A stretch of DNA of 32,000 bases from Halomicrobium mukohataei DSM 12286 (GTDB taxonomy: Archaea > Halobacteriota > Halobacteria > Halobacteriales > Haloarculaceae). A model generated the notes under the pieces. It worked only from the letters and a program-made list of their open reading frames with translations, did not search any database and was not told the origin of the DNA. Position 1 is the stretch's first letter. Each line of letters begins with the position of its first letter. This document shows, piece by piece, positions 2,702 through 31,208 of the stretch. A program made the position numbers and the translations under genes. The DNA lies in contig NC_013202.1 of assembly GCF_000023965.1 (NCBI RefSeq), positions 3,078,488-3,110,487 of the forward strand, given 5' to 3'.

Positions 2702-2821
2702 CACAGCGGACTGTTCTGTCGCAGTCGGCGTTCGCGGAGTCCGCGCTGTCGGCCACGCCGTCGGTTCGGTCGGGGCGTCTCCGAGCACACGACGCCAGTG
2801 TGGTCCGTGTCGCCCTCGCGG

Positions 2822-3100
2822 TTACCCGTGAGAACCGTCGTCGGTCCGATCTCGACGGTCGTCGGCGGCGTCGCTGTCGGCGCTGGACTGCTGTTTTCTG
2901 AGCTCGTCGACTTCGCGTTCGAGTTCGGCGATGCGCTCGTCCGTGCCGTCGTCCGAGGACCGGCGGAAATAGCGGATCGCCAGTCCCGCAGCCACAACGA
3001 CTGGCGCGGTCAACAGGACGAATATCAGAAGGACGATAATCAGTTCTTGCGTACCTGGGAGACCGAGCTGGAGGGCAATCACGTCCGGCACATCTGTCAC
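2822..3100 (-). CDS. small membrane protein: one TM helix plus acidic coiled-coil tail (start uncertain)
   Basis: LQLGLPGTQELIIVLLIFVLL is followed by a hydrophobic helix, then RIAELEREVDELRKQQ. Possible starts are GTG at 3100 or an internal GTG near 3082. It is a paralogue of the next gene. Confidence 0.55.
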   Translation of the reverse strand: MTDVPDVIALQLGLPGTQELIIVLLIFVLLTAPVVVAAGLAIRYFRRSSDDGTDERIAELEREVDELRKQQSSADSDAADDRRDRTDDGSHG

Positions 3101-3114
3101 GCCAGAACAAGAAC

Positions 3115-3318: not shown

Positions 3319-3359
3319 ACCGGCGTCTGGACGGCGAGGCGTATAAGCGCTGTCGGCGA

Positions 3360-4643
3360 TCAAAAGTCGGCCAGCGTCGACTGGAGTCCCGCGACCATGT
3401 CGGATTTGCGCCGGAGCGTCCCCAGCGACACCGGGAGCTGTTCGGTGACGGCGGTCACGGCGTCGCGGAAGCTCTCGGCGACGGCGGGCTGATCGTGATA
3501 CCGGTGGTTCGCGTCGCCAGCACCCTCATCGAAGGCGTTTCGGACACCTTCGCGGACCTGCCAGACGCCGACGGGGGCCCAGTAGTCGTCGGTGACCTCT
3601 CGGAGGACGAGACACTTCGCCTGGCGGTCTCGCTCCTGGAGGTGTTCGAGCACGCCCAGCCGCGAGGCGTAGTACGCGCCGGCAGTCTCCTCGACGTAGC
3701 CGGTGCGGCCCTCGTAGCCCTCGTTAGCGCTGGCGAGGTAGTGAGTCTGGCCGGTCGGGTTCCAGACGCTCTCGGGGGCCTTCATCTCGACGAGTTCGAA
3801 CTCCCACTGGCCAAGGGTCATGAGGACCCAGTAGCGGTTGCCCATGTACTCGTTGTACCAGACCTCGGTCTGGTCGATGGTGTTGCGGTTCTGGATCGTG
3901 CCCCGGAGATACTGCCCGACCGTGTCGTCGACGGCGGTGATCGACCACCGCGTCGGGACGAGTGTGCGCTGACGGCGCTGGCCCAGCGCACCCGCCGAGA
4001 GGATCGTGTTGACCTCGTACACGTCGAAGCCACGGCGGTAGAGGTAGTTCATCGCGCCCTCTGCCTGCCAGTCGTCGTCCTCGAGGGTCTTCTCGACGGC
4101 GCGGGGGACGTGTGGGTTCTCCGCGAGGTCGGCGGTCGTCGCGTTGGCACGCGGCCCCGTGGGCGTGCCCACGTCGTCGAAGCGAACGTCCAGGTCCGGC
4201 GTGCCGTCGAGTCCGACCTCCACGTCGACGGGATGGTCGGCGATCGCGACCTCGCGCTGCGTGCCGACGAAGCCGTCCCACACGTCCGACACGTCGACGT
4301 TCGCCGAGCGCGTGCTGTTGAGCATCCCGGTCCGTCGCTGGAGCACGTCGTCGATCCCCAGCCCGTCCCGGTACCACTGGCCGCTGGTGGCGAACTGCTC
4401 GGCGTCGGCGTCGGACGCCATCGGCGAGAGCACGCCCGTCGACACGTCGGGATAGCCCGACCGGCCGACGAAGATCTCCGGCGCGGTCGAACCAAAGAGC
4501 GCGTCGCCCTGGACGGTCTCCTCGAACTGCCGTTCGACGTCCTCGAGGTGGTTCGTGATCTCGTAGGACTTCTCTTCGGCGAGGCGACGCCGCTCGGCGG
4601 CCTCGTCGCGATCGAACCCCTCGATGAACTCGTCGAGACGCAT
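3360..4643 (-). CDS. nreA: Nre-family DNA repair protein (NreA-like, DUF650/DUF651 type)
   Basis: 427 aa. It carries the conserved FGSTAPEIFVGRSGYPDVSTGVLSP block typical of archaeal Nre proteins. The C-terminus GLQSTLADF fits a PCNA-interacting PIP box (QxxLxxF). A TATA-like ttttatc lies about 30 nt upstream. Confidence 0.8.
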   Translation of the reverse strand: MRLDEFIEGFDRDEAAERRRLAEEKSYEITNHLEDVERQFEETVQGDALFGSTAPEIFVGRSGYPDVSTGVLSPMASDADAEQFATSGQWYRDGLGIDDVLQRRTGMLNSTRSANVDVSDVWDGFVGTQREVAIADHPVDVEVGLDGTPDLDVRFDDVGTPTGPRANATTADLAENPHVPRAVEKTLEDDDWQAEGAMNYLYRRGFDVYEVNTILSAGALGQRRQRTLVPTRWSITAVDDTVGQYLRGTIQNRNTIDQTEVWYNEYMGNRYWVLMTLGQWEFELVEMKAPESVWNPTGQTHYLASANEGYEGRTGYVEETAGAYYASRLGVLEHLQERDRQAKCLVLREVTDDYWAPVGVWQVREGVRNAFDEGAGDANHRYHDQPAVAESFRDAVTAVTEQLPVSLGTLRRKSDMVAGLQSTLADF

Positions 4644-4709
4644 CGAGAGAGCGTTGGACGCTCGGCGATAAAACAGTGACTCTCGTGGCGGGCACGCCGA
4701 CCGACGACT

Positions 4710-5081
4710 TCACGCGTACTGATCGTAGAAGTAGAGCCCGACCGCGACGAGCAGCGCGAACGAGCCGACGGTGTCGATCGAGCGCATCTGCGGGACGAGC
4801 TCGAACCCAGCGAGACCCTGATAGGCGATCGACAGCCCGGCGATGCCGAGTGTCGCCACCAGCGCGACCGCGACGGGCTCCGTCTCGCGGGCGCGACTGA
4901 TCCGCCGAGTGCCGACGCCACAGGCCAGTAACACGAGCACGCCGATGAGGAGGTCCGAGAGCGGCCCGGCGTAGGGATTCGTCGTCGAGAGTTCCGTGAC
5001 GAACAGCGCCACGTACACCAGCAGCGCACCGACGACGATCTGTCGCTGGCGCTGTGAGCGGATCGCGAAGATGTCTGTCAT
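4710..5081 (-). CDS. small integral membrane protein (about 4 TM, 123 aa)
   Basis: ATG at 5081 gives MTDIFAIRSQRQRQIVVGALLVYVALFV.... Only the C-terminal 123 aa of listed ORF 4710..5447 look like real protein. The upstream part is Arg/Thr-rich shadow sequence. Confidence 0.6.
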   Translation of the reverse strand: MTDIFAIRSQRQRQIVVGALLVYVALFVTELSTTNPYAGPLSDLLIGVLVLLACGVGTRRISRARETEPVAVALVATLGIAGLSIAYQGLAGFELVPQMRSIDTVGSFALLVAVGLYFYDQYA

Positions 5082-5229
5082 CGTCGGGCAATGGACAGGG
5101 GGAAAGATAACAGTGACGAGCACGAGGCGGTGCCAGCCGGCGACGTTCCGGACACCGGCGTCTCGCTGGTCGACGGCCCGACGGGACCGCCGTCGCGCTC
5201 GATCGGGACAGAACGTAACGTATACCAGA

Positions 5230-5889
5230 GTGGCACCGACAGTGGCGTCTGTGCCCTCCAACACAGACAGCGACGGTCCGCGAGACGTAGCCGCCGTCGT
5301 GCGTCGATACCGACGGCTCGAACGACCGATCAGCGCCGGCATCGCCGTCCTCGTCGGACTCGTCGCGGCCGTCGCGATCATCACGCTCCCGCTGGTGGTC
5401 GGCCTCGCGGTCGCCCTCGCCGTGTTCGTCGCCGTCCGCGTCCCCATCTTCGAGACCGGCGGGACGACGACGCTGTCGACCCAGCAGCGTCCCGACGAGG
5501 TGCGTGCGGCCTTCGAGAGTGCCAGCCCGCCGCCGCTGGTCTTCCAGTGGGGACTGGCCGACGAGGTCGAACAGACAGACGGAGGCTGGTCCTACGAGAT
5601 CTCGTATCTCCTGGGACTGCGGTCGGTCCGACTGCACGTCGAGACCCACTCCGGCGACGACGCCGACCTCGAACTGGTGGTCACCGTCGGCGACCAGTCG
5701 TGGGGGACCTACCGCGTCGACATCGAGGCCCGCGACGACGAGACGATCGTCGTGATCGACACGACCTCGGATCGCAGATTCGGCCTCCGACGGCTGCCAC
5801 AGTGGTTCGTGGGCCAGCGATACCGGGTGGCGGCGCTGTCCGCACAGGGCTACACCGTCGTCGAGCAGGACGCGCGACTGACGCTCTAG
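5230..5889 (+). CDS. hypothetical membrane-anchored protein (2 TM plus soluble beta-rich domain); start uncertain
   Basis: In-frame GTG candidates lie at 5230, 5242 and 5251. The sequence is ...RRYRRLERPISAGIAVLVGLVAAVAIITLPLVVGLAVALAVFVAV, then an acidic domain (WSYEISYLLGLRSVRLHVETHSGDDADLELVVTVGDQSWGTYRVDIEARDDETIVVID). The upstream part of listed ORF 4996..5889 is shadow-like. Confidence 0.55.
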   Translation: MAPTVASVPSNTDSDGPRDVAAVVRRYRRLERPISAGIAVLVGLVAAVAIITLPLVVGLAVALAVFVAVRVPIFETGGTTTLSTQQRPDEVRAAFESASPPPLVFQWGLADEVEQTDGGWSYEISYLLGLRSVRLHVETHSGDDADLELVVTVGDQSWGTYRVDIEARDDETIVVIDTTSDRRFGLRRLPQWFVGQRYRVAALSAQGYTVVEQDARLTL

Positions 5890-6146
5890 CGCCGCTCGAC
5901 GACCCGGTCGATCGTCAGCCGGTCGTAGCCCAGCCCCTCGTGGACCGCGAGCTCCAAGGCGTTGACGAGATAGTGGGCGACGACGACCACGAGCAGGCTG
6001 TCGGTGAGGACGAACCCGGCCGCCAGCGCCAGACCGAGCCCGCCGGTGACGAGCATCCCGACTCGCCCCTGCGCGCCGTGAGCGGCACCGAAGACGACCG
6101 ACGAGGCTGCGTGCAGCCACGGCGAGAGAGAGAAGCCAGCGGTCAG
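5886..6146 (-). pseudogene. 3' fragment of a CPBP (CAAX/Abi) protease gene; truncated duplicate of 7739..8551
   Basis: It translates to ...LTAGFSLSPWLHAASSVVFGAAHGAQGRVGMLVTGGLGLALAAGFVLTDSLLVVVVAHYLVNALELAVHEGLGYDRLTIDRVVERR*. This matches the C-terminal ~80 aa of the full gene, but there is no N-terminal part and no start. The stop (5886-5888) overlaps the convergent gene's stop. Confidence 0.8.
5908..6105. repeat. direct repeat, copy A (partner 7755..7952)
   Basis: Hand alignment gives 198 bp with 5 mismatches and an offset of 1847 bp. Weaker similarity continues to about 6146 / 7993. Confidence 0.9.
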
Positions 6147-6493
6147 CGCGCTAGGCGAGACCGTGACCGTCGAGAGTGTTGGCGACCATACGGGCGGCGA
6201 GGTCAGCCAGCTTTACGTGAAAGACCCCGTCAGATCGAAGGTCACGCCGTCCCACAAGATCTGTGGGGAAGAGTGCGTGCGTTTCGACGACAGTGAGTCG
6301 ACGACCGTCAAGTTCGACCACACACCCACGATCGGGCAACCATCATGTGACCGGACGGCGAGAAGCACGTCGAGGCCGACAGCTTCGAACCGATCGTCGG
6401 CGAGGACACTGTCCGGCTCGAAGTCGCAGACAGAGTTATTTATAATCGATTATAGACGCTGTCTTTTTCTTCAAACACCGGAAATATATTCAC

Positions 6494-7321
6494 TCACAAC
6501 ACAGCCTCTGCCTCTTCTTGGTCTTCCGGATACGACCATGAATCCGCACCTGTATCAATATTCACCCCGAGCGGAGGATATGTAAGAACAACACTTTCTA
6601 AGAAATTAAGACCAGCATTCCCAAATACGCTCCAGGTGTGTTCGTATGTTCCTGCGATTCTGCCCGGTACCCTATCCGGGAAGTTTTGTTTGTTCAGAGT
6701 GAATTGGAGGCTTCCAACAATTTTCTCCGGATGCTGGAAGCTCAAATCATTATCACTTACTTTTATTCCAACTGCTGAGGCACCATCACTGCCGATAGGG
6801 TTGTCGTCAGGTTCTTCGGTTTTAATGTCTTCAACTTCTCCAGATGTGCTGTACCCCTGGCAACTATGTTCGATAGAATCACTACCATCTAATCCAAATT
6901 GGCTGTCCTCCCATCCAATAACTACTCCATCTTTGGGTGGTGCTCCGTCAATGTCTACTTTTTCTTGGAAAAACAAGCTCCAGCTTAGCATAACATCAAT
7001 CTTTTTGCCGAGATCATTTGCCATAAATTGGCAATTTGATTCGCTTGAGTCATAATGGCTGAAAAAGTCTTGAGTTTGGACCGAATCTGATTTTTCACCC
7101 GGCGAGAATTCGCCAGTTAGATCATTTGCTTTGAGTTTAAAGCCCGCATGCTCAGCGAGAGCATACGCTTCCTCAAAGTTTTGGTTAGCAACCGCCGTCT
7201 GGATTTGACTCCGAATATGCTTTTTATGTCTCCCACGACTCCCTTGTCCCGAGACAGTTGCGCTAATGAATGGTACTGATAGGGCGGTACCTGCGGTCTT
7301 TAGAATCGATCTTCGATCCAT
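6494..7321 (-). CDS. secreted orphan protein with twin-arginine (Tat) signal peptide
   Basis: ATG at 7321 gives MDRRSILKTAGTALSVPFISATVSGQG..., that is, RR plus a hydrophobic stretch plus A-x-V-S-G. The mature part is about 250 aa, acidic and beta-rich, with 2 Cys. Codons are AT-rich. No family recognised. Confidence 0.7.
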   Translation of the reverse strand: MDRRSILKTAGTALSVPFISATVSGQGSRGRHKKHIRSQIQTAVANQNFEEAYALAEHAGFKLKANDLTGEFSPGEKSDSVQTQDFFSHYDSSESNCQFMANDLGKKIDVMLSWSLFFQEKVDIDGAPPKDGVVIGWEDSQFGLDGSDSIEHSCQGYSTSGEVEDIKTEEPDDNPIGSDGASAVGIKVSDNDLSFQHPEKIVGSLQFTLNKQNFPDRVPGRIAGTYEHTWSVFGNAGLNFLESVVLTYPPLGVNIDTGADSWSYPEDQEEAEAVL

Positions 7322-7428
7322 ATTGCAGATTGACATTCGTATAGACATGTATTAAATGTATGTAATTAGGATATAAACTCCTATAGTATATCACAAAATA
7401 CTTATATGTGTTGATAATTATTTTAGGT

Positions 7429-7611
7429 ATGGATGAAATCAAAGGATACCTATCAATTATAACAATTCTCCTCGGAATTCAGACACTCAACGCGGTTTCT
7501 GATAACACGAGCAGTCTTTTTACTGAAGTTGGAGCAGCCCTCTCCATCTTAGTGATACTTCTTGTCCCAATTTTCCTCCTCGGAAAAGCAGTCCACTCGA
7601 AATTGCGATAA
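7429..7611 (+). CDS. 60-aa two-TM membrane protein (island family, copy 1)
   Basis: The sequence is MDEIKGYLSIITILLGIQTLNAVSDNTSSLFTEVGAALSILVILLVPIFLLGKAVHSKLR. It has the same length as 26659..26841 and 29/60 identical residues by hand alignment, with little DNA identity. This argues for real coding sequence under selection. It is divergent from 6494..7321. Confidence 0.65.
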   Translation: MDEIKGYLSIITILLGIQTLNAVSDNTSSLFTEVGAALSILVILLVPIFLLGKAVHSKLR

Positions 7612-7738
7612 TATGATCTTCTGAGGAAGTTAAGCATGTGGTAACAAAGTGGCTCGTCGCGCGGCGATACCGCAACGAGCCGTTGGCCGCATAGGGGTAC
7701 AGGGTCGTCGACCGAGAGACCGAGCTCTCGTTCGGAAG

Positions 7739-8551
7739 TTAGTCGATGAGCGTCTCGATCGTCAGCCGGTCGTAGCCCAGCCCCTCGTGGACCGCGAGCT
7801 CCAGGGCGTTGACGAGGTAGTGGGCGACGACGACCACGAGCAGGCTGTCGGTGAGGACGAACCCGGCCGCCAGCGCCAGACCGAGCCCGCCGGTGACGAG
7901 CATGCCGACGCGCCCCTGCGCGCCGTGGGCGGCACCGAAGACGACCGACGAGACGACCGCGAGCAGCCACGGCGAGACGGAGAATCCGGCCGCCATCGCG
8001 CCGATGGCAGCGCCACGGAAGACGACCTCCTCGACGACGGCGACGGTCGGCAGCGCGACGCCGAGCAACAGCACCCACCCACCCAGTGAGTCGGGGGCGA
8101 GCAGTTCGCGGACGGCCTCGTCGTAGCCCGCACCGGTGGCGTCGGCGACTGCACCCGCGGCTTCGTTGGCCAGCCAGAGGGCGACGCCGAAGCCGATCCC
8201 GACGGCGACGCCGGGGAGCCCACGGGCGAGCGCGGTCTCGGGGATCCCGAGCGCCCACGGCGGGATCGAGAAGTACACCGCGGCCCCGACGACGACCGCG
8301 CCGAACAGCCCCTGGGTCACGACGACGTTGGCGAGCAAGGCACCGGGCGACAGCCGCGCCCGCGGGTCCGCTACCGGCCGCTCGAAGCGCGGCACGACCG
8401 GGTCGGTCGGTCGCGGATCGCGTGGCGAGGGCTCCCTGAACCGGACTGGGTCGTCGTCGCCGCTCAGGGCAGACTGGGACGCTCTCGCGAGTGCGAGAAG
8501 CAAGAACAGAGAGAGGGCGAGCAGGCCGGCGAAGGCGGCCCACCGCGCCAC
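7739..8551 (-). CDS. abi: CPBP family intramembrane glutamic endopeptidase (CAAX protease / Abi)
   Basis: 270 aa with multiple TM helices. Motifs present are EEVVFRGA (EExxxR), FGAAHG (FxxxH) and HYLVNALE (HxxxN). The GTG start lies 4 nt after the lonB stop on the same strand. Confidence 0.85.
   Translation of the reverse strand: MARWAAFAGLLALSLFLLLALARASQSALSGDDDPVRFREPSPRDPRPTDPVVPRFERPVADPRARLSPGALLANVVVTQGLFGAVVVGAAVYFSIPPWALGIPETALARGLPGVAVGIGFGVALWLANEAAGAVADATGAGYDEAVRELLAPDSLGGWVLLLGVALPTVAVVEEVVFRGAAIGAMAAGFSVSPWLLAVVSSVVFGAAHGAQGRVGMLVTGGLGLALAAGFVLTDSLLVVVVAHYLVNALELAVHEGLGYDRLTIETLID
7755..7952. repeat. direct repeat, copy B (inside the intact CPBP gene)
   Basis: See 5908..6105. 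Confidence 0.9.
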
Positions 8552-12396: not shown

Positions 12397-14820
12397 ATGC
12401 AACACAGAAGAGACGTGCTTGCGAGTCTGGGCATCGCACTGTCGACTGCACTTGCCGGCTGTTCGGAAGACACCGACGGCGAGACCGACGGCGAGAGCAG
12501 CGACGAAGCGACCGAGACGGACCGGACACAGTCGAGTGGCCCCGAACTCGCGGCTTCGGCCCAGCTCAACGTCTACCGCGCCCGGCTCTTCGACGCCGTC
12601 GCGCTCGGTCGTGCCGGCCAGACCGCCGCGGGAGCGTCCGTCGCCCAGTCGATCTTCCAGCGGTTCGAGAACGCGACCGGGGAGTACGGCGCTCACGAGA
12701 CGCTGGAACGGACCAGCGAGTCGGCCTACGAGGGATTCGAGAGCGCGCTCGGGGAACTCCGGTCGACGCTCGAAGACGGCGACACCGACGCCGCCGCCGA
12801 GGCGGCGACGACGGCCAGCGACCAGCTCCAGATCGCCCAGCAGGCCCTGATCGGCAACGACGCCACGCGCGCACTCGACGCGCTCCTCCTCGGGAGCCGC
12901 GCCGCCAACACCCGCGTACTGGGCGAGGCTGGTCACTTCGAGGCGGCGGCGACCGTGGCCACCGAAACGACCGAGCGGTTCGAAGACACGCTCGTCCACG
13001 GCGCACTCGAAAGCGCCGACGGGGACGCCTACGAGGACTTCGAGTCCGGACTGGCGTCGATCCAGCGCGCCGCCAGCGAGGGGGACGCCGAGGGCGTGAC
13101 CGACGCCGTCGCCGCGGCCCAGTCGGCGGCGGTGGCGGGTGCCTACGCGCTGGGAACCGAGTCGGTCGCCGGGACCGGTCACCTCGCAGCGATGCAGTCA
13201 GTGGGGTACGACGCCGCGGCACTCGCCGGTCTCGGCGGCCCGAGTGAGGCCCTCGCGCACGCGACGACGCTGACCACCTACCGGGCGCGGATCCGGGACG
13301 CGGCGTGGCTGGCCGACGCCGACGAGGGATCGACGGCGGGCACGGTCGTCGGGAACGTCTTCGCGGACTTCGAGGGTGCGCGTGCCCACGAAGCGCTGGA
13401 AGAAGCCGACCACGAGGCCTACGAGGGGTTCGAGAGCGGCCTGGAGTCGCTCCAGTCGGCCGTCGAGAGCGGCGAAGGCGTCGACGACGCCCTCGCCACG
13501 GTGGACGAACACCTCCGGACCGGCGTCGCGACGCTGGCCGGCGACCACGCCCCGGTCCTGCAGGCCGGCTTCTTCCGGGCGCGTCTCGCCGACGCACGCG
13601 AACGCTACGAGCGAGGTGCGCCCTCGGTCGCCGCGTCGATCACCCAGGAGCTGTTCGAGCGGTTCGAGGCCGACGAGCTCGGGTTCCACGAGACGCTCGA
13701 AGAGGCCAGCGAGGACCTCTACCACCGCTTCGAGGAGGAGCACCTGGCCGGCCTGATCGAGGCCTACGAGAACGACGACAGCGAGGCGGTCACCACCCAC
13801 CACGAGGGCGCGCTCGACGCGCTCCTGGAGTTCGAGGCCACCACCGGGGACAGCGTCGCGAGCGCGGCCGAGACCGCGTACTTCGTCGCTCGCGGATTCG
13901 ACAGCGCTACCGTCGCCACGCTGGGCGACAGCGAGCGCGCGGCGACGATTCCACGGGCCGCCTTCGAGCACTTCGAGAGCGGTGCAGCGGGCTACCACGA
14001 GGCACTGGAACACGCCGACCACGAGACCTACGAGACGTTCGAGTCCGATCTGGGCGCGATCCGGTCGACCGCGGAGTCGGGCGGCGACGTGCGCAGTGCC
14101 GTCCAGACGTTCGTGAGCACCGCGATCGACGGCATCTACGCCATCGTCGGCGCTGCCGGCGGCTCGAACGGCGCGGCCGCTGCCGCGATCGTACAGGACG
14201 TGTACGCCACCTTCGAGGAGGCCCGCGTCCACGAGGCGCTGGAAGAAGCCGACCACGAGGCCTACGAAGGATTCGAGGCGGCGCTGGAAGCGTACGCGGG
14301 CGGACTGGACGGCGAGGGCGACGTGCCCGTCGGTCGCCTCGCAGACGCGACGCTGCGCGCTCAGTTCGCCGTCGCGGGTGCGCTCGACGACGCTCCCGTC
14401 GGCCAGGACGGCGAGGGGAGCGCCGAGACGGAAGAGACCGAATCGTCGCTGGAAGGGGGCCCGAACGTCGTCGACGGCGTCCCGGACGACGCCGACCACG
14501 TCGTCTCGATGCAGGCAGTGGCCTTCGAGCCGGCCGAGTTGACCGTCTCGGTCGGCGATACGGTCGCCTTCGAGCACGTCGCCGGTGAAGCCCACAACGT
14601 GGTGGCCCGAGAGGAAGAGCTACCGGCGGACGCGAGCTACTGGGCCTCCGGCGACTTCGACTCCGAGACGGCCGCAGTCGAGGGGTGGGACAACGGACAG
14701 GGTGCCGTCCAGTCGGGCCAGTCCTACGTCCACACCTTCGAAACGGCCGGCGAACACCCCTACTACTGTGTCCCACACGAGATGGCGGGCATGGAAGGCA
14801 CGATCGTCGTCGAAGAGTAA
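12397..14820 (+). CDS. Tat lipoprotein with six helical H/E-rich repeats and a C-terminal halocyanin/plastocyanin-like cupredoxin domain
   Basis: ATG at 12397 gives MQHRRDVLASLGIALSTALAGC (twin-Arg plus lipobox LAGC). There are six ~110-125-aa repeats, each with F..FE......HE.LE......YE.FE..L, for example HEALEEADHEAYEGFESGL. The C-terminal domain has type-1 Cu ligands (AGEAHNV ... YYCVPHEMAGM). The listed start at 12217 adds Arg/Pro-rich non-coding-like sequence. Confidence 0.85.
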   Translation: MQHRRDVLASLGIALSTALAGCSEDTDGETDGESSDEATETDRTQSSGPELAASAQLNVYRARLFDAVALGRAGQTAAGASVAQSIFQRFENATGEYGAHETLERTSESAYEGFESALGELRSTLEDGDTDAAAEAATTASDQLQIAQQALIGNDATRALDALLLGSRAANTRVLGEAGHFEAAATVATETTERFEDTLVHGALESADGDAYEDFESGLASIQRAASEGDAEGVTDAVAAAQSAAVAGAYALGTESVAGTGHLAAMQSVGYDAAALAGLGGPSEALAHATTLTTYRARIRDAAWLADADEGSTAGTVVGNVFADFEGARAHEALEEADHEAYEGFESGLESLQSAVESGEGVDDALATVDEHLRTGVATLAGDHAPVLQAGFFRARLADARERYERGAPSVAASITQELFERFEADELGFHETLEEASEDLYHRFEEEHLAGLIEAYENDDSEAVTTHHEGALDALLEFEATTGDSVASAAETAYFVARGFDSATVATLGDSERAATIPRAAFEHFESGAAGYHEALEHADHETYETFESDLGAIRSTAESGGDVRSAVQTFVSTAIDGIYAIVGAAGGSNGAAAAAIVQDVYATFEEARVHEALEEADHEAYEGFEAALEAYAGGLDGEGDVPVGRLADATLRAQFAVAGALDDAPVGQDGEGSAETEETESSLEGGPNVVDGVPDDADHVVSMQAVAFEPAELTVSVGDTVAFEHVAGEAHNVVAREEELPADASYWASGDFDSETAAVEGWDNGQGAVQSGQSYVHTFETAGEHPYYCVPHEMAGMEGTIVVEE

Positions 14821-19433: not shown

Positions 19434-19703
19434 ATGAGCACGATTCAGGAGGAGACGAAGCCCGCGGCGTTCACCCAGACGGAGTTTCGCGAGCAGCTCC
19501 GCGAACTCCCGCCGAGCGCGAAGCTCGTCGCGAAGGTCCTGGAGACCGACGCGCCGCTGTCCCAGGGGCAACTGGCCGAGGCGTCGCTGTTGCCCGACCG
19601 GACGGTCCGCTACGCGTTGAACCGACTCGAAGAGTGTGAGCTGGTCGACTCCCGGTACAGCTTCAACGACGCTCGCAAGCAGGTCTACTTCCTCACCAAC
19701 TGA
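19434..19703 (+). CDS. small winged-helix (MarR/ArsR-like) DNA-binding protein
   Basis: 89 aa. SAKLVAKVLETDAPLSQGQLAEASLLPDRTVRYALNRLEECELV fits an HTH plus wing. An AT-rich promoter patch lies upstream (19330-19430). Confidence 0.7.
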   Translation: MSTIQEETKPAAFTQTEFREQLRELPPSAKLVAKVLETDAPLSQGQLAEASLLPDRTVRYALNRLEECELVDSRYSFNDARKQVYFLTN

Positions 19704-19706
19704 TTT

Positions 19707-19790
19707 CGTACGGTTTCTTGTAGTTGCTTACCGGTGATCGTCGCCACGGAGTAGACGATCACCGGTAAATCGCTACAATAATCCGTATCC
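19707..19790 (+). ncRNA. conserved ~84-nt hairpin element, copy 1 (candidate 3'-UTR element or small RNA)
   Basis: Blocks are CGTACGG (19707-13), N4, TTGTAGTTGC, a perfect 15-bp stem 19728-19742 / 19754-19768 with an 11-nt loop, N13, and TCCGTATC (19782-19789). It starts 4 nt after the stop of 19434..19703. Confidence 0.55.
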
Positions 19791-19812
19791 GTCGCTCCTC
19801 CCTGGGGTGGGT

Positions 19813-20589
19813 ATGGAGCGGATCAGCGTCCCCGTCGCGACGCGCGCGCCGAGCGGACAGACGAACGCGTACGTCCTCGGCCGCGACCGCGCGGCCGTGA
19901 TCGACCCGTGTGCTCGCCACGAACGCGTAGACGACGCGCTGGCGTCGCGCTCGCTTGCTCACGTTCTCGTCACGCACCACCACCCGGACCACGTCGGCGG
20001 CGTCGCCGACTACGCGGCCGAACACGACGCCACGGTGTGGGCGCGTCGGGGCCGTGAGGCGGCCTTCGAGGCCGCGACCGGCGTCACACCGAACCGAACG
20101 TTCTCTGAGGGGACGGAAATTCCCGTCGACGACGGCCAGCTGCGAGTCGTCGAGACGCCGGGCCACGCGCCCGAACACGTCGCCTTCGCGACCGACGACG
20201 GGCTCGTCTGTGGCGACCTGGCCGCGGCCACCGGCAGCGTCGCAGTCGGGGCACCGGAGGGAGAGATGCGAGCATACTGTTGCTCGCTGCGGCGCGTGAT
20301 CGCGCGTGCTCCCGGCCGACTCTTCCCCGGTCACGGCCCCGTCGTCGACGACGCGGGCGAGACCTGCCGTCGCCTCCTCGCACACCGGCTCGATCGCGAA
20401 CGCCGGGTCGAAGCGGCCGTCGTCGAGGGCCACGAGACGCTGCCGGCGATCACCGACGCGGCCTACGACAAGGGCGTCGAGAACGTGCGAGATCTCGCCG
20501 AGGCGACCGTCGCCGCCCACCTCGAAAAGCTCGCCGTCGAGGGGCGAGTCGCGTGGGACGGCGAGCGCGCACGGCCAGCGTCGGCGTGA
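19813..20589 (+). CDS. MBL-fold metallo-hydrolase
   Basis: VLVTHHHPDHVGG (HxHxDH motif), TPGHAPEH and a later FPGHG. ATG at 19813. Confidence 0.85.
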   Translation: MERISVPVATRAPSGQTNAYVLGRDRAAVIDPCARHERVDDALASRSLAHVLVTHHHPDHVGGVADYAAEHDATVWARRGREAAFEAATGVTPNRTFSEGTEIPVDDGQLRVVETPGHAPEHVAFATDDGLVCGDLAAATGSVAVGAPEGEMRAYCCSLRRVIARAPGRLFPGHGPVVDDAGETCRRLLAHRLDRERRVEAAVVEGHETLPAITDAAYDKGVENVRDLAEATVAAHLEKLAVEGRVAWDGERARPASA

Positions 20590-26407: not shown

Positions 26408-26658
26408 TCTGGGAAGCGACCCCGAGCAGGAGCAGCGTCACACATCGTCCAACAGGCTCGTCGCACTCATCTTTCGAATTCTTGCTGCCTTCGTCCGTGA
26501 GATCAGAGGACATGTCGCTTCAATCGGTGTGTAACGATTCACCTGCTCCGACCACGAGCACACCGTTGTGCCGCGTGATCAGTTGTCCGCAATATCGAGA
26601 CTGCTAATTCCGATCCATGTTGCTACACAGTTATGCCGATATTTGATGTGGATGTGAG

Positions 26659-26841
26659 TTATCCGACCATAGAATAGACGATGCGACCAACGAGATACAG
26701 TGGGAGAATCAGAAGAACCAAAATGGCGATTGCGCTCCCTATGTCCTGAAACAGGCCACTTGTACTGTCTGAGACGATCTCAAGCGTAATTATGGAAAGT
26801 AAAACCGTAATGATTGCAAGGTATGAATTTTCTGACTCCAT
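26659..26841 (-). CDS. 60-aa two-TM membrane protein (island family, copy 2)
   Basis: The sequence is MESENSYLAIITVLLSIITLEIVSDSTSGLFQDIGSAIAILVLLILPLYLVGRIVYSMVG. It is a paralogue of 7429..7611 and shares the loop motif VSD(N/S)TS(S/G)LF. Confidence 0.65.
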   Translation of the reverse strand: MESENSYLAIITVLLSIITLEIVSDSTSGLFQDIGSAIAILVLLILPLYLVGRIVYSMVG

Positions 26842-27343
26842 GTGTATAGAAACCCAGTACAGATACAGATCATATTTCTTTCGGAACAAATAAGATCAAC
26901 GGAAAGATCTGCTGGGTGTGGGTCAGACACTGTTAGAGCGCGAGGAAGACAGCCAATGCGGGTTATACTGCCAGCTGTACGTCTGTGAAGAATTTCGCGA
27001 TCCCGTGATCGCGAATCTCTTGCAATAGTTACAGCCGGCAGTAGTAGCAGGAGGTTGTCAGATAAATTGAGGCGGTTCAGGATACGACATTGAGATTTAG
27101 CTAACTATACTACGAGATAATAGTCTCTGGTACAGAGAGTTATAAAACAGCTCACAGTGGGATTAATCTCAGGACTATATAGTATGAATTGGCCACTCGG
27201 TCCGTGTGCATATTTACCGTCACTATTCTGATAAACCTGATTGTACCCACAGAAATGAGCAAGATACAGGACGTGGATCTTGGAGAAAAGTGAACGGTAG
27301 GTACAGGGGAAAGTGATACCGAGATAGTCCATTCCCAAATGTA

Positions 27344-28390
27344 CTATTTGTGACGGCTTGCAAAGGGAGACTCATCAAAGCTGATGAAATCTAATTTTTC
27401 AGAACTACCTTCAATATCTGAACCGAATTCTTTCTGTAGATGTCGGATTGCATCTAAACATTCCTCATGTGCACTTCTAACTGTTTCTTTGTCCGGCAAA
27501 TAGCCTTCGTGTACCACTTTATTTCTAATTTCATAGAAATCATCATACCACTGGTCAAATCGGCAATAGTCCTCGAACTCGACTCCGGCCTTTGGATAAT
27601 GGTCGGTGACGATATTGTAGATAGCATAATACTGTCCAGAATCATCCTGAATGGATTCTCGAGCCTCTAATTCAGTATTTTCTGAAGATATTTTAGCAGC
27701 GACGAATGCGTTTTTTGCCCATGACTCAAACAGATTGAAGCTGAGAATGATAGCCGTTCTAAATTCACCCAGATCAACTTTATTTAATACATCTAGATGA
27801 AGTTGTAGATAGGTATTAGCAGACTCATTATTCTTAAGTGCTTCAGCCATTTGACGGGCTTTATTTTCAGTAAGTCCAGTTTTGGCACCTAACTCAAGAG
27901 GGCCTCCAGTTACAGAGCGGTTGCGAAAGCCACGCTCATCTGTTCGTATCCGAAACCTAATGATATCTTCAACTACAAGGGGGCGTATCCAATGATAACC
28001 AGTATTCTGTCGATAGTGTTGAAGAAATTTATTGAGAGCCATTATAACTGATTTAATCGCACGTCCCTCACGGTCTTGCATACTGGAACCCATCATAGCG
28101 ACTGCTCCGGGTATCTCGTCCGGCCCACCTGCCGGAATGGATTTGTACACGTCATGATGAATGGTTCCCTGAACTTTCGAACGGGTCGCTTTCCCAAGCC
28201 GATCTCGCTTAACCGTTACTGTTCCTTCAATTCCGGAATCACCAGATGTTCGCTCAAAGCTTAATCCGAATGGGTGTCCAAAAACTTGCGGAAAAAACAT
28301 CGGGCCGTCATCGTCGGATTCAATTCCATCAGGTACCTCGATATGGTATGGAATTTCAAATCTGACCAAGACGTGTTGCATACGAGCCAT
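27344..28390 (-). CDS. orphan 348-aa protein: N-terminal unknown domain plus C-terminal HEPN-like helical domain (Rx4H)
   Basis: ATG at 28390 (MARMQHVLVRFEIPY...). The C-terminal ~150 aa are helical (TYLQLHLDVLNKVDLGEFRTAIILSFNLFESWAKNAF ... WYDDFYEIRNKVVHEGYLPDKETVRSAHEECLDAIRHL) and contain RNKVVH (27509-27526), which fits the HEPN Rx4-6H motif with the common R-N start. Codons are AT-rich. Confidence 0.65.
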   Translation of the reverse strand: MARMQHVLVRFEIPYHIEVPDGIESDDDGPMFFPQVFGHPFGLSFERTSGDSGIEGTVTVKRDRLGKATRSKVQGTIHHDVYKSIPAGGPDEIPGAVAMMGSSMQDREGRAIKSVIMALNKFLQHYRQNTGYHWIRPLVVEDIIRFRIRTDERGFRNRSVTGGPLELGAKTGLTENKARQMAEALKNNESANTYLQLHLDVLNKVDLGEFRTAIILSFNLFESWAKNAFVAAKISSENTELEARESIQDDSGQYYAIYNIVTDHYPKAGVEFEDYCRFDQWYDDFYEIRNKVVHEGYLPDKETVRSAHEECLDAIRHLQKEFGSDIEGSSEKLDFISFDESPFASRHK

Positions 28391-28653
28391 AACGATACTC
28401 AAGAACCCTTAATATTTCTCGCAGCTCTTCTATCTTCGAGTATATCGAACAGTCTACGTATTTACTGGTCGGATGGTCTTTTAGTTTTTCTTATCTAAAG
28501 AGGCCTATTCTACAAGGCCCAGACCCTGTATTAAATGATTAACTGGTATCACAACTGCTCTGTGACGCCCCTTTGATGTAACTGACACGCAGCCAACTCT
28601 ATTCTGTGTAGAATTCGGCAACGCTTACGGCCCCCGACCTGTTTTCCCGATGC

Positions 28654-29493
28654 ATGACAGACGAGGCGACGGCGTTCGTGCCCGGTCACGTGACGGGCTT
28701 TTTCACGACCGATCCGGCCGACGATCCGACGAAAGCGGGATCGCGCGGGGGCGGGCTCGCGTTGGCCGACGGCGTGACCGTCACCGTCGAGCGCAGCGAC
28801 GAGCGATCGGTGACGCTCGACGGCGTCGACATCGAGATCGAAGCCGTCGAGCGCGTGCTGGACGCGCTGCGAGCGACCGTCGCGGTGCGAGCGGAGACGC
28901 CGCTGCCGCTGGGCTCGGGCTTTGGCGTCTCGGGGGCGACCGCGCTTGGGGCGGCGCTGGGGACCAACGCCCTGCTGGAGCGGGGGCTCTCGGAGAACGA
29001 ACTGGTGACGATCGCACACGGCGCGGAGGTCCAGGCCGGGACCGGGCTGGGCGACGTGGTCGCGCAGGCCCGCGGCGGCGTCCCGCTGCGGCTCGAACCG
29101 GGCGGGCCACAGGACAACTACATCGACGCCATCCCGGCACGCGGCCGCGTCGAGTACCACGTCATCGGCGAACTCTCGACCGAAGCCATCCTCGACGGCG
29201 ACACCGCGGCACTGACCCGTGCCGGCGAGAAAGGGCTCTCCCGGGTCGTCAAGGAACCGACGACGGAGTCGTTCCTCCGGGCCTCGCGCCAGTTCGCCCG
29301 CGAGGCGGGGCTGCTGACCGACGACGTGCGGTCGGTGCTGGAAGACGTGGCGGCGGCCGACGGCGACGGCGCGATGGCGATGCTCGGAGAGACGGTCTTT
29401 ACCGTCGGCTCGGGGCTGACCGACGCGGGCTACGACGCGACGATCACCGAGATCCATCCCGGCGGTGCGACGGTGCTCGACTCGTCTGACTGA
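28654..29493 (+). CDS. pantoate kinase (archaeal CoA pathway, GHMP kinase superfamily)
   Basis: AFVPGHVTGFF at the N-terminus, the GHMP motif PLGSGFGVSGA, and GTGLGDV. About 280 aa, as in archaeal PoK (COG1829). Confidence 0.8.
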   Translation: MTDEATAFVPGHVTGFFTTDPADDPTKAGSRGGGLALADGVTVTVERSDERSVTLDGVDIEIEAVERVLDALRATVAVRAETPLPLGSGFGVSGATALGAALGTNALLERGLSENELVTIAHGAEVQAGTGLGDVVAQARGGVPLRLEPGGPQDNYIDAIPARGRVEYHVIGELSTEAILDGDTAALTRAGEKGLSRVVKEPTTESFLRASRQFAREAGLLTDDVRSVLEDVAAADGDGAMAMLGETVFTVGSGLTDAGYDATITEIHPGGATVLDSSD

Positions 29494-29574
29494 TACGGAC
29501 GGTCGTCGGAATGTACCGGTGAGCGTCTACCCCATGGCGACGCTCACCGGTAAGCAACTACAACGTTCCGTATG
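29492..29574 (-). ncRNA. conserved ~84-nt hairpin element, copy 2 (opposite orientation to copy 1)
   Basis: The minus strand reads CATACGG, N4, TTGTAGTTGC, a 14-bp perfect stem (29514-29527 / 29539-29552) with an 11-nt loop, N14, and TCCGTATC. It lies about 37 nt 3' of the MFS transporter stop in sense orientation. Confidence 0.55.
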
Positions 29575-29611
29575 ATACGGGACCGCTCGACGAGGGGCCG
29601 TACGACCGCGC

Positions 29612-31018
29612 CTATTCGCCCGAGTCGCCGACGGCGGCCGCGGGCGTCGACGAGACGTTGCTCCGGAGGTCCGCCTCGATCGCTTCCAGGGACCGCCCCT
29701 TCGTCTCGGGCACGAGGCGGTAGGTGAACACGAGCGCGACCAGGCTACAGAGTCCGAACAGCCAGAACGTCGAGGGCTGCCCGACGCTGGCGGTCAGGAC
29801 GGGGAAGGCCAGCGAGACCGCGAGGTTCGCGCCCCAGTTGGCGACGGTGACGAGCCCCATCGCGCTGCCACGAGTCGCCAGCGGGTAGATCTCGGAGATG
29901 AGTAGCCAGAAGACCGGGCCGAGCCCGATCGCGAAGAAGGCGACGAACAGCATCAGGCTGCCCGTCGCGATCCAGCCCAGCGCGCCGCCGAAGCCGGGCA
30001 GGTAGAAGACGACACCGAGGATGCCCAGCGTGACGACCATTCCGCCGACACCGACCAACAGGAGGACGCGTCGGCCGACCCGGTCGATCAGTGCGATGGC
30101 GACGACCGTCATGACGACGTTGATGACGCCGATCCCGACCGTCGCGAGGATCGACGTGACGCTGCCGAAGCCGGTCGATTCCAGAATGGTCGGGGCGTAG
30201 TAGATGACCGCGTTGATCCCGGTGATCTGCTGGAAGACGGCCAGCCCGAGGCCGACGATCAGCGCGGGGCGCATCCACGGCTGGAGCAGGTCGCGCAGGC
30301 CGGTGCCGGACTGCTTTTCGACGGTCGAGCGGATCTCCGCCAGCTCCTCCTCGACGCCTTCCTCACGGGTGCGTGCGAGGACGGCACGAGCCTCGTCCAC
30401 GCGGCCGTTTTCGAGGAGCCAGCGAGGGCTCTCGGGCATCTTGACCATCCCGATCGCGAGGACGACCGCCGGCACCATTCCGGCACCGAGCATCCACCGC
30501 CACGCCCCCGCGTCGGCGAAGGCGTAGTTGACGAAGTACGAGACGAGGATACCGACGGTGACCATCAGCTGGTTCAGCGAGGTCAACGCACCGCGGATCT
30601 TCGGCGGCGAGATCTCGGAGATGTACAGCGGGCCGACGATCGAGGCGAACCCGATCGCGACGCCGTCGATGAGCCGTCCGGCGACGAGGACCGGCACCGA
30701 CGGGGCGACGGCCATGGTGAGCGAGCCGACGAAGAACACTCCGGCACCGAGCAAGATGAGCCGGCGGCGGCCGATCCGGTCCGCGAGTCGTCCGCCGACG
30801 GCCGCGCCGAAGGCGGCTCCCGCCATCGCACCGCTGACGACGATCCCCTCGACGAGCGGGGACATCGTGAACGTGTCTTGGATGTAGAGGAACGCTCCGG
30901 AGATGATTCCAGTGTCGAACCCGAACAGGAGGCCGTTGAGCGCGGCGAGGGCGGCCGAGAGGTAGATGAACCGCCCCCCGTCGCCGTCCAGAACGCGCCG
31001 GAGTTGTGCTGTCGACAT
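29612..31018 (-). CDS. MFS sugar porter family transporter
   Basis: ATG at 31018 (MSTAQLRR...). It has 12 TM helices and the sugar-porter signatures GFDTGIISGA, GRLADRIGRR, PESPRWL and PETKGRSLE. Confidence 0.9.
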   Translation of the reverse strand: MSTAQLRRVLDGDGGRFIYLSAALAALNGLLFGFDTGIISGAFLYIQDTFTMSPLVEGIVVSGAMAGAAFGAAVGGRLADRIGRRRLILLGAGVFFVGSLTMAVAPSVPVLVAGRLIDGVAIGFASIVGPLYISEISPPKIRGALTSLNQLMVTVGILVSYFVNYAFADAGAWRWMLGAGMVPAVVLAIGMVKMPESPRWLLENGRVDEARAVLARTREEGVEEELAEIRSTVEKQSGTGLRDLLQPWMRPALIVGLGLAVFQQITGINAVIYYAPTILESTGFGSVTSILATVGIGVINVVMTVVAIALIDRVGRRVLLLVGVGGMVVTLGILGVVFYLPGFGGALGWIATGSLMLFVAFFAIGLGPVFWLLISEIYPLATRGSAMGLVTVANWGANLAVSLAFPVLTASVGQPSTFWLFGLCSLVALVFTYRLVPETKGRSLEAIEADLRSNVSSTPAAAVGDSGE

Positions 31019-31208
31019 GTGTGAATCCCACACGAGCGTTTACAACATCTATAAAGAAGGCTTGCGATTTATCATCAAGATACGATCATGAAATAGTAGA
31101 GATGACAGTGTAGTACTTCAGTAAAGCGGTTACCGGCTAAAAAGAGATGGTAAGAGATATGTAACGATGGAGCGATGGACTTTCGACGCTCGGCGGCGAC
31201 GTGTCTCC

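What the first reader, a model, noticed from the sequence alone, without database searches (positions are those of the whole stretch)
19707..19790. An ~84-nt conserved hairpin element occurs twice (19707-19790 plus strand; 29492-29574 minus strand) with a compensatory base-pair change
Both copies have the same block order: C(G/A)TACGG, N4, TTGTAGTTGC, a 14-15-bp perfect stem, an 11-nt loop (GCCACGGAGTA versus GCCATGGGGTA), N13-14, and TCCGTATC.

The stems differ at one position on each arm (TTACCGGTGATCGTC/GACGATCACCGGTAA versus TACCGGTGAGCGTC/GACGCTCACCGGTA). A T-A pair is replaced by a G-C pair, which is classic covariation. The outer blocks (ATACGG/CCGTAT) can also pair, with a G-U wobble in copy 1 that works only at the RNA level in this orientation.

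Each copy sits just 3' of a gene in sense orientation: 4 nt after the wHTH gene stop, and about 37 nt after the MFS transporter stop. Neither is followed by a U-tract, so they are not classical haloarchaeal terminators. Possible roles are a 3'-UTR stability or processing element, a small RNA family, or a REP-like genomic repeat.
Basis: seen in the sequence. Interest (0 to 1): 0.65.

Follow-up and report, generated by a model that had tools for sequence, protein, structure and literature searches.

The report
Small hairpin-shaped jumping DNA repeat
The two "conserved hairpins" are copies of a 79-bp miniature transposon (MITE) present more than 100 times in Halomicrobium genomes; it inserts at the triplet TCA/TGA, very often exactly on a gene's TGA stop codon, so it is a mobile DNA repeat and not a dedicated RNA element.

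Summary
Two about 80%-identical, near-palindromic copies lie at window 19709-19787 (+) and 29494-29572 (-).

They are members of a large repeat family, not a two-copy RNA motif:
- About 10 copies lie on a Halomicrobium mukohataei plasmid.
- At least 104 hits lie in 67 sampled 8-kb tiles of H. katesii.
- 59 distinct sites occur in hypersaline metagenomes.

The unit is exactly 79 bp, with ends TACGG...CCGTA. It is flanked by a 3-bp direct duplication, TCA/TCA or TGA/TGA, in 82 of 87 genomic copies and 54 of 59 metagenomic sites. Empty sites exist:
- The window lacks a copy that H. katesii has at 2899-2901.
- A close relative, strain KBTZ05, lacks window copy 2.

The "compensatory" T-A to G-C change separates two subfamilies whose two arms are terminal inverted repeats. 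The loop occurs in both orientations, even at one orthologous site. Both strands fold equally well, and there is no orientation bias relative to genes (18 versus 21).

In about 45% of copies the duplicated TGA is the stop codon of a converging gene. This includes window copy 2 and the GHMP-kinase gene.

The ends resemble those of an IS630-family (DDE_3) insertion sequence found in H. katesii and in metagenomes, which is the likely mobiliser.

Verdict: a MITE family, apparently not yet described. A 3'-UTR hairpin role is possible only as a by-product.

The parts
19709..19787 (+). MITE copy 1 (subfamily A, 79 bp, TACGG...CCGTA), between the wHTH gene and the MBL-fold hydrolase gene
   Evidence: Identical in a second strain (L002). 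Present at the same site in strain KBTZ05 with the loop inverted, and in metagenome contig L127 with the core inverted. Absent in the more distant L128/L129.
19706..19708 (+). Left flanking triplet of copy 1 (TCG here; TCA in relatives): a decayed target-site duplication
   Evidence: KBTZ05 and L127 have TCA at this position.
19788..19790 (+). Right flanking triplet of copy 1 (TCC): a decayed target-site duplication
29494..29572 (-). MITE copy 2 (subfamily B, 79 bp), between the converging GHMP-kinase and MFS-transporter genes
   Evidence: Absent from the orthologous site of Halomicrobium sp. KBTZ05.
29491..29493 (+). Target-site duplication of copy 2 (TGA on the + strand), which is also the stop codon of the GHMP-kinase gene (28654-29493)
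   Evidence: In KBTZ05 a single TGA is followed directly by TACGGGAACG...
29573..29575 (+). Second copy of the duplicated triplet of copy 2 (TGA on +, TCA on -)
29576..29602 (-). 27-bp TACGGCCCCTCGTCGAGCGGTCCCGTA stretch next to copy 2, with MITE-like ends. Either an old internally deleted remnant or an end-like target. It predates copy 2.
   Evidence: Conserved in KBTZ05, where copy 2 is missing.
2899..2901 (+). Empty target site (TGA) in the window. H. katesii carries a 79-bp copy plus a second TGA exactly here.
   Evidence: L036:6712-6790 filled; window empty.
19434..19703 (+). 89-aa winged-helix (MarR/HTH_24-like) gene upstream of copy 1
19807..20589 (+). MBL-fold hydrolase gene downstream of copy 1. 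In relatives without the MITE it starts only 28 nt after the wHTH gene.
28654..29493 (+). GHMP-kinase gene whose stop codon was the insertion target of copy 2
29612..31033 (-). MFS sugar-transporter gene converging on copy 2

Best explanation
The element is a 79-bp non-autonomous DNA transposon (MITE) of Halomicrobium and related haloarchaea.

Anatomy. Almost the whole element is a pair of terminal inverted repeats: TACGG-N4-TTGTAG-N4-TTACCGGTGAKCGTC and its complement, around an 11-nt centre. Either DNA strand, or an RNA copy of either strand, can therefore fold into a long hairpin.

Mechanism.
- Shown: it inserts at the triplet TSA (TCA or TGA, preferably in C-TSA-G) and duplicates those 3 bp.
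- Inferred: it encodes nothing, so a transposase supplied in trans must move it. The best candidate is an IS630-family insertion sequence (orfA with HTH_29/32/33 domains, orfB with a DDE_3 domain). Its ends share the TACGG terminus and a TTACCG block at the same distance, and its relatives duplicate TNA.

Stop codons. TGA is both a target and the commonest tolerated TSA, so about 45% of copies sit exactly on a gene's TGA stop. The duplication regenerates the stop and leaves the gene intact.

The stem difference. The two-sided stem difference between the window's copies marks two subfamilies, A (GATCGTC/GACGATC) and B (GAGCGTC/GACGCTC). Paired changes arise because both arms are copies of one binding site and because palindromic DNA homogenises its arms. 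RNA selection is not needed.

Loop inversion. The central loop, and sometimes the whole core, inverts in place by recombination between the arms.

RNA effects. Inferred, not shown: a copy transcribed within a 3' UTR or an operon will form a hairpin of about -40 kcal/mol. This may affect mRNA ends or stability as a side effect.
For: - Multi-copy family. About 10 copies lie on plasmid NZ_CP039376.1. 104 nhmmer hits lie in 67 H. katesii tiles and 6 in a Halobacteriales MAG. 59 distinct metagenomic sites were found.
- Exact 79-bp length and TACGG/CCGTA ends in 86 of the 88 full-length copies whose ends were located.
- Target duplication. TCA/TCA in 42 and TGA/TGA in 40 of 87 copies. With a search pattern that did not include the flank, 54 of 59 sites had a perfect TSA/TSA and none had mixed triplets.
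- Empty versus filled sites. H. katesii L036 has TTGTC-TGA-[79 bp]-TGA-GCTCG where the window has TTTTC-TGA-GCTCG at 2899-2901. Window copy 2 is filled where KBTZ05 is empty. Copy 1 is absent in L128/L129.
- Assembly behaviour. Short-read contigs L003 and L004 break inside copy 1, as they do at repeats.
- Subfamilies. A = 69 copies, B = 19. The loop is forward or reversed in both (40/29 and 13/6). The orthologous copy 1 in KBTZ05 has its loop flipped.
- Pair counts. Two-sided changes are concentrated in three subfamily-diagnostic pairs, and many single-copy changes are unpaired.
- Strand symmetry. Both strands fold equally well, and gene orientation is 18 versus 21.
- Stop codons. 39 of 87 copies have the duplicated TGA as the stop of a long high-GC3 ORF, and 5 of 9 full-length copies in the annotated plasmid and the window do so. 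The null expectation is 5-10% raw and at most about 25% conservatively.
- Candidate mobiliser. The truncated IS630-type copy in H. katesii (L029) ends ...TTACCAGTAAAAACTAATGCACGACCGTA|TGA. Full copies with TACGG...CCGTA ends occur in L117 and L132. The proteins carry DDE_3 and HTH_29/32/33 domains. Relatives with TAGTG ends show a direct TNA duplication in 7 of 7 sites, including TTA/TTA.
- Wider distribution. Related MITEs with the same ends and TSA flanks occur in Natrinema and Halomontanus plasmids.
Against: - No autonomous partner with matching ends was found intact in a Halomicrobium genome. The only copy seen there is cut off by a contig start.
- Identity between the MITE and IS ends is limited to two blocks, 16 of 27 positions.
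- In the IS subgroup whose ends are closest (TACGG/TAGGG-TCGTGCG), only 2 of 8 full-length copies have matching flanking triplets. Six have TGA on one side and TCA on the other. I cannot explain this.
- The canonical IS630/Tc1-mariner duplication is TA, not TNA (from my own knowledge).
- Gene calls behind the stop-codon statistic are heuristic (ORF length plus GC3), except on the annotated plasmid.
- No transcript data were available, so an additional RNA-level role is not excluded.
- A weak trend in loop orientation relative to the adjacent gene (26 versus 13, p = 0.053) is unexplained.
Confidence: 0.9

Rival explanations
1. A dedicated structured RNA element, either a 3'-UTR stabiliser, processing site or terminator, or a small RNA family. 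Its hairpin would be kept by selection on RNA pairing, and the repeats would be spread copies of a functional RNA gene.
For: - Very stable hairpin, z = -5 to -8.
- Two-sided stem changes exist.
- Most copies lie just past gene ends, about 45% directly on the stop codon.
- One G-U pair in copy 1.
- A weak trend in loop orientation relative to the adjacent gene (26 versus 13, p = 0.053).
Against: - No Rfam match.
- No orientation bias (18 versus 21), and both strands fold equally well.
- The loop sequence is inverted in about 40% of copies and differs at an orthologous site.
- A 3-bp target duplication and empty sites show transposition.
- Two-sided changes are subfamily markers, and private mutations are mostly uncompensated.
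- No U-tract follows the hairpin.
- Copy 2 is absent in a relative whose flanking gene product is 95% identical, so it is not needed there.
Confidence: 0.05
2. A REP/BIME-like or PATE-like palindromic repeat, moved by a tyrosine (HUH) transposase of the IS200/IS605 or RAYT type acting on single-stranded hairpins.
For: - Extragenic palindromic repeat in high copy number, often right after genes.
- Contains a GTAG tetranucleotide (TTGTAG) in each arm, reminiscent of REP heads (from my own knowledge).
- TnpB/IS605-type genes exist in these genomes.
Against: - IS200/IS605, REP and PATE elements make no target duplication and lack terminal inverted repeats (PMC3119063).
- Here a 3-bp duplication is present in more than 90% of copies, with clean empty sites.
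- The ends match a DDE-type IS630 element.
- No RAYT gene was seen next to any copy.
Confidence: 0.02
3. A MITE, but mobilised by a different transposase family that typically duplicates TNA (IS5-family subgroups, or PIF/Harbinger-like) rather than by the IS630-type element.
For: - The 3-bp TSA duplication in a C-TSA-G context resembles the TNA duplication of some IS5-family and Harbinger elements (from my own knowledge).
- The closest IS630 subgroup shows inconsistent flanking triplets.
Against: - No IS5-type element with TACGG ends was found in about 0.8 Mb of Halomicrobium sequence examined.
- The IS630-type element shares the terminus, an inner block at identical spacing and TSA flanks.
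- Its TAGTG-ended relatives duplicate TNA in 7 of 7 sites.
Confidence: 0.12

Closest known systems
Prokaryotic MITEs in general (for example the Haloquadratum HqIRS MITEs, Halobacterium MITEHsal elements, Neisseria Correia elements)
   Same: - Short and non-coding.
- Terminal inverted repeats, target-site duplication, high copy number.
- Presence or absence varies between strains.
- Mostly intergenic.
- Ends related to those of an autonomous IS (PMC3119063, PMC7002104).
   Different: - Very small (79 bp) and almost entirely inverted repeat.
- Strict TSA target with a 3-bp duplication.
- About 45% of copies lie exactly on TGA stop codons.
- The central loop is found in both orientations.
- No description of this family was found in the papers searched. 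ISfinder itself could not be consulted.
IS630/Tc1-mariner insertion sequences and their Stowaway-like MITEs
   Same: - The candidate partner has the IS630 layout: an HTH orfA plus a DDE_3 orfB, about 1.14 kb, with inverted repeats of about 30 bp.
- The MITE shares its terminal TACGG and an inner TTACCG block.
- The target has a symmetric context (C-TSA-G, compared with the canonical C-TA-G).
   Different: The canonical duplication is the dinucleotide TA (from my own knowledge). Here it is a trinucleotide, T-S-A. Empty sites contain no TA.
REP/BIME and ERIC elements of bacteria
   Same: Palindromic extragenic repeats located just after genes. When transcribed they form 3' hairpins that can stabilise upstream mRNA (from my own knowledge). 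The Halomicrobium element could behave in the same way.
   Different: REPs have no target duplication and are moved by RAYT tyrosine transposases. This element has inverted-repeat ends, a duplication and a DDE-type candidate partner.

Membership tests
MITE (miniature inverted-repeat transposable element) | Short and without coding capacity | tested here: met
   79 bp in 86 of the 88 full-length copies whose ends were located.
MITE (miniature inverted-repeat transposable element) | Terminal inverted repeats | tested here: met
   TACGG-N4-TTGTAG-N4-TTACCGGTGA... on both ends. 94.6% of arm positions are paired across 87 copies.
MITE (miniature inverted-repeat transposable element) | Target-site duplication of fixed length | tested here: met
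   3-bp TSA direct repeat in 82 of 87 copies and in 54 of 59 unbiased metagenomic sites.
MITE (miniature inverted-repeat transposable element) | Many dispersed copies | tested here: met
   104 hits in 67 H. katesii tiles, about 10 on one plasmid and 2 in the window.
MITE (miniature inverted-repeat transposable element) | Insertion polymorphism (filled and empty sites) | tested here: met
   Window 2899-2901 is empty where H. katesii is filled. Window copy 2 is filled where KBTZ05 is empty.
MITE (miniature inverted-repeat transposable element) | Ends and duplication length shared with an autonomous IS that supplies the transposase | tested here: inconclusive
   An IS630-type IS shares the TACGG terminus, a TTACCG block at equal spacing and TSA flanks. 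However, no intact copy was seen in Halomicrobium, and the flanks of the closest subgroup match in only 2 of 8 copies.
IS630/Tc1-mariner-derived (Stowaway-like) MITE | Duplication of the dinucleotide TA | tested here: not met
   The duplication is T-S-A. Empty sites read C-TGA-G with no TA.
IS630/Tc1-mariner-derived (Stowaway-like) MITE | Partner transposase with a DDE_3 catalytic domain and an N-terminal HTH domain | tested here: met
   For the candidate partner only. PF13358 at E = 7.5e-34; HTH_33, HTH_32 and HTH_29 in orfA.
REP/BIME (RAYT-associated) or PATE (IS200/IS605-associated) repeats | No target duplication, no terminal inverted repeats, and association with a Y1 (HUH) transposase | tested here: not met
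   A duplication and inverted-repeat ends are present. No Y1 transposase was seen beside any copy.
Curated RNA family (Rfam) or intrinsic-terminator-like 3' element | Match to a covariance model, a U-tract after the stem, and a fixed orientation relative to the gene | tested here: not met
   No Rfam hit at gathering score. No T-run follows the element. Orientation is 18 versus 21.
Functional 3'-UTR hairpin (works like REP in mRNA stabilisation) | Transcript 3' ends, or protection from decay, at the hairpin | not testable with these tools

The most novel reading that the evidence does not exclude
The family is a stop-codon-seeking transposon. An IS630-type transposase that cuts T-S-A with a 3-nt stagger (instead of TA) would direct the MITE onto TGA stop codons and regenerate the stop by duplication. 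The resulting hairpins of about -40 kcal/mol would have been taken over as transcript-end or mRNA-stability elements in an archaeon that otherwise lacks hairpin terminators. The in-place inversion of the loop would be a regular flip-flop of the palindromic DNA.
Probability: 0.15. Interest if true: 0.6.

Novelty: new member of a known kind. Interest (0 to 1): 0.35.

Why it matters
- It removes a false lead. The paired stem change is not evidence for a structured RNA. Covariation within palindromic mobile repeats should not be read as RNA selection.
- It adds a high-copy MITE family to the haloarchaeal mobilome, apparently not yet described. The family has three features worth follow-up: a strict TSA target with a 3-bp duplication linked to an IS630-type element, a roughly 45% landing rate on TGA stop codons, and in-place inversion of the loop.
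- Such repeats break short-read assemblies and mark recent differences between strains.
- They place strong hairpins in many 3' UTRs and inside at least one former two-gene unit (wHTH-MBL). They may therefore shape gene expression in Halomicrobium.

Tried and rejected
- Rfam scan of the whole window at gathering thresholds found nothing.
- Search for an autonomous element inside the fetched Halomicrobium DNA, by pairing left and right ends 20-4000 bp apart with equal flanks, found only separate MITEs, an 80-bp sister family and a 136-bp variant.
- All-against-all BLAST of the tiles found two other IS types, one with GCTCTT... ends and one with CTCAGCTTTGAACG ends and an 8-9-bp duplication. Their ends do not match, so both were rejected as partners.
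- The solo end at L029:2477-2506 proved to be a 30-nt remnant overlapped by the 3' end of an ArsR-like gene, not an IS end.
- A TA-duplication model (element CGG...CCG) was considered and rejected, because empty sites contain no TA.
- A "no duplication, element includes the triplets" model was considered for the IS copies with TGA...TCA flanks. It does not fit the MITE copies and remains unresolved for the IS.
- Literature searches for a described Halomicrobium or haloarchaeal MITE with these properties found none. The Haloquadratum supplement lists IS630-type elements without a determined duplication.
- A scan of viral contigs for the element found nothing.
- A test of whether loop orientation follows the adjacent gene's direction gave 26 versus 13, p = 0.053, which is not convincing.

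Full report
**1. The observation**

They align over about 88 nt at 80% identity and form the longest inverted repeat pair in the window (I1: 19706-19793 and 29488-29575). The inner 15-bp stem, the 11-nt loop and the two-sided T-A to G-C difference are all present.

Each copy folds at -40.9 and -43.3 kcal/mol, with z-scores of -7.9 and -5.5 against shuffles. The opposite strands fold almost as well, at -40.2 and -39.3 kcal/mol. Rfam finds nothing in the window.

**2. Source and copy number**

The wHTH protein next to copy 1 is encoded identically in CP045142.1, a 3.09-Mb record of assembly GCA_009217585.1, and in a second assembly, GCA_003992375.1. The organism names of these two assemblies were not shown. 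Relatives place the window in Halomicrobium: a flanking protein is 95% identical in Halomicrobium sp. KBTZ05, and the DNA is 95% identical to H. katesii.

- BLASTN of the element against plasmids hit the H. mukohataei JP60 plasmid NZ_CP039376.1 at 11 places. Weaker hits fell on plasmids of Halostella, Salinibaculum, Halococcus, Natrinema and others.
- I fetched the whole plasmid. It carries seven full-length and three partial or weak copies.
- One scan of the species-representative genomes with TSATACGGNNNNTTGTAGTTGC returned 99 tiles. Of these, 67 were from H. katesii DSM 19301, 5 were from a Halobacteriales MAG, and the rest were chance bacterial hits.
- A profile search of those tiles found 104 hits in H. 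katesii alone, including a more distant 80-bp sister family.

The unbiased samples are the window (2 copies in 32 kb) and the plasmid (10 in 222 kb). From these I estimate, by extrapolation, 150-200 copies per genome.

**3. Anatomy**

I located both ends in 88 full-length copies. In 86 of them the unit is exactly 79 bp, starting TACGG and ending CCGTA. One copy has a 2-bp deletion, and for window copy 1 my search pattern overshot.

- **Flanking triplets.** They are TCA/TCA in 42 copies, TGA/TGA in 40 and imperfect in 5. That scan's pattern required TSA on one side. I therefore repeated the test on metagenome contigs with a pattern that did not include the flank. Of 59 distinct sites, 54 had a perfect TSA/TSA (30 TCA, 24 TGA) and none had mixed triplets.
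- **Wider target.** It is C-TSA-G: C at -4 in 61 of 87 copies and G at +4 in 60 of 87.
- **Subfamilies.** A has 69 copies, with inner stem GATCGTC/GACGATC and outer TTTATTGTAG/CTACAATAAT. B has 19 copies, with GAGCGTC/GACGCTC.
- **Loop.** The 11-nt loop occurs in both orientations relative to the asymmetric arms, in both subfamilies (A 40/29, B 13/6).

**4. Proof of mobility**

- The H. katesii tile L036 is collinear with window 1712-6969 at 95% identity, except for an extra 82 bp. The filled site reads TTGTC-TGA-[79 bp]-TGA-GCTCG. The window reads TTTTC-TGA-GCTCG at 2899-2901.
- The orthologous region of Halomicrobium sp. KBTZ05, whose MBL protein is 95% identical, has copy 1 but lacks copy 2. 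There the GHMP-kinase stop TGA is followed directly by TACGGGAACG..., and the gap between the genes is 36 nt instead of 118 nt.
- Copy 1 is also present in a metagenomic relative (L127). It is absent in more distant ones (L128, L129), where the wHTH and MBL genes are only 28 nt apart.
- In relatives the left flank of copy 1 is TCA. The window's TCG/TCC flanks are therefore a decayed duplication.
- Short-read contigs L003 and L004 end inside copy 1, as assemblies do at repeats.

**5. DNA-level behaviour versus RNA-level selection**

- On 87 aligned copies, 94.6% of arm cells pair. The two-sided changes sit mainly in three pairs that separate the subfamilies: 30-50 (UA 34, GC 14, GU 2), 9-71 and 20-60. 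Many private changes are unpaired.
- Both arms must bind the same transposase, and palindromic DNA can correct one arm from the other. Paired change is therefore expected without any RNA.
- The orthologous copy 1 in KBTZ05 has its loop reversed relative to the window, with identical flanks. In L127 the whole core is reversed. The centre therefore inverts in place, which would swap the loop for its complement in any transcript.
- Among copies sitting on a stop codon, 18 have one arm towards the gene and 21 the other.
- A weak tendency for one loop orientation in the sense transcript (26 versus 13, p = 0.053) is noted but not relied on.

**6. Stop codons**

On the annotated plasmid and in the window, the duplicated TGA is the annotated stop of a converging gene in 5 of 9 full-length copies:
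- an ABC ATPase,
- a GH2 hydrolase,
- a hypothetical gene,
- an ABC substrate-binding protein,
- the window's GHMP kinase.

Using long, high-GC3 ORFs as gene proxies, 39 of 87 copies qualify. Among all TSA sites outside such ORFs, only 5% are stops, and 10% in the C-TSA-G context. Even a generous correction to 25% leaves p = 5e-5.

Target preference or selection could each produce this excess. An insertion on the stop regenerates the stop and harms nothing. The data do not separate the two.

Related MITEs in Natrinema and Halomontanus plasmids show the same ends and the same TSA flanks. In Halomontanus the duplicated TGA is again an annotated stop codon.

**7. The likely mobiliser**

- The first 0.5 kb of H. 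katesii scaffold 2 (L029) holds the 3' part of an IS630-type transposase gene. It is followed by ...TTACCAGTAAAAACTAATGCACGACCGTA|TGA.
- Read inward, this end shares TACGG(T) at positions 1-6 and TTACYG at positions 20-25 with the MITE end, with identical spacing.
- Homologues are widespread on haloarchaeal plasmids. They have an orfA with HTH_29/32/33 domains and an orfB with a DDE_3 domain.
- Full copies with TACGG...CCGTA ends occur in hypersaline metagenomes (L117, L132).
- Relatives with TAGTG ends have a matching TNA triplet at both sides in 7 of 7 sites, including TTA/TTA. This clade therefore appears to duplicate 3 bp rather than the canonical TA.

Caveat: in the subgroup closest to the MITE, only 2 of 8 copies have matching triplets. 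Six have TGA on one side and TCA on the other. I have no explanation for this.

**8. Comparison and verdict**

The element meets every defining feature of a MITE that could be tested. It fails the defining features of REP and PATE elements (no duplication) and of a curated RNA or terminator.

It works like other MITEs. It may act like bacterial REP hairpins when transcribed, but that is inference. Copy 1 now separates two genes that are 28 nt apart in relatives, so it could affect their co-transcription. This is also untested.

I found no description of this family in the searchable literature. ISfinder could not be checked.

I rate it a new member of a known kind, of modest interest. The TSA duplication, the stop-codon landing rate and the loop inversion are its more unusual traits.

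Noticed in passing
L114, L117, L118, L119, L121, L131 (full-length IS630-type copies): In the IS subgroup with TACGG/TAGGG-TCGTGCG ends, six of eight copies have TGA on one flank and TCA on the other. These flanks extend the inverted repeat instead of forming a direct duplication. In L119 the inverted symmetry of the flanks runs for 12 nt. The MITE copies never show this pattern.
   Followed up: partly
window 29576-29602 (minus strand): A 27-bp TACGGCCCCTCGTCGAGCGGTCCCGTA stretch with MITE-like ends lies next to copy 2 and is conserved in KBTZ05, where copy 2 is absent. New copies often have CCGTA-TCA just upstream, which suggests insertion beside older ends.
   Followed up: partly
window 26500-28600: Low-GC island (GC 0.41-0.56, against about 0.67 elsewhere) containing a 352-aa ORF (27344-28402, minus strand). 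The corresponding interval is about 1.7 kb shorter in strain KBTZ05, so this is probably a recent insertion.
   Followed up: no
window 5896-6105 and 7743-7952, enclosing 6000-8000: Two 210-bp direct repeats (95% identical) bracket a low-GC stretch (GC 0.51-0.53). This looks like an integrated segment flanked by a duplicated gene end.
   Followed up: no
window 12693-14324: Five diverged repeats of about 96 nt inside the 807-aa DUF5059/copper-binding protein gene. These are internal protein repeats.
   Followed up: no
window 1006-1071, and window 884-1200 against L047:6107-6423: A 32-nt-arm hairpin (81% complementary, 2-nt loop) lies inside a segment of about 320 bp. That segment recurs at 88% identity at a non-orthologous place in H. 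katesii. It may be another repeat family.
   Followed up: no
L006:7362-10262 (H. mukohataei plasmid NZ_CP039376.1, about 57.4-60.3 kb): An unannotated array of about 44 units with a period of about 66 nt. It looks like a CRISPR array.
   Followed up: no
L126:12136-13383 (Halomicrobium sp. KBTZ05): A TnpB/OrfB_IS605 gene is present between the TRAM gene and the next gene in KBTZ05 but absent at the same place in the window. This is another strain-specific mobile element.
   Followed up: no
L101:1228-1250 and L022:6300-7610 (H. katesii): An IS of about 1.3 kb with CTCAGCTTTGAACG ends and an 8-9-bp duplication has inserted into one of the MITE copies. Mobile elements here target one another.
   Followed up: partly
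39 stop-codon-associated MITE copies (H. katesii tiles, plasmid, window): In the sense transcript of the adjacent gene, the loop would read UACUCCGUGGC in 26 copies and GCCACGGAGUA in 13 (p = 0.053). The copies are not independent, so this is a hint only.
   Followed up: partly
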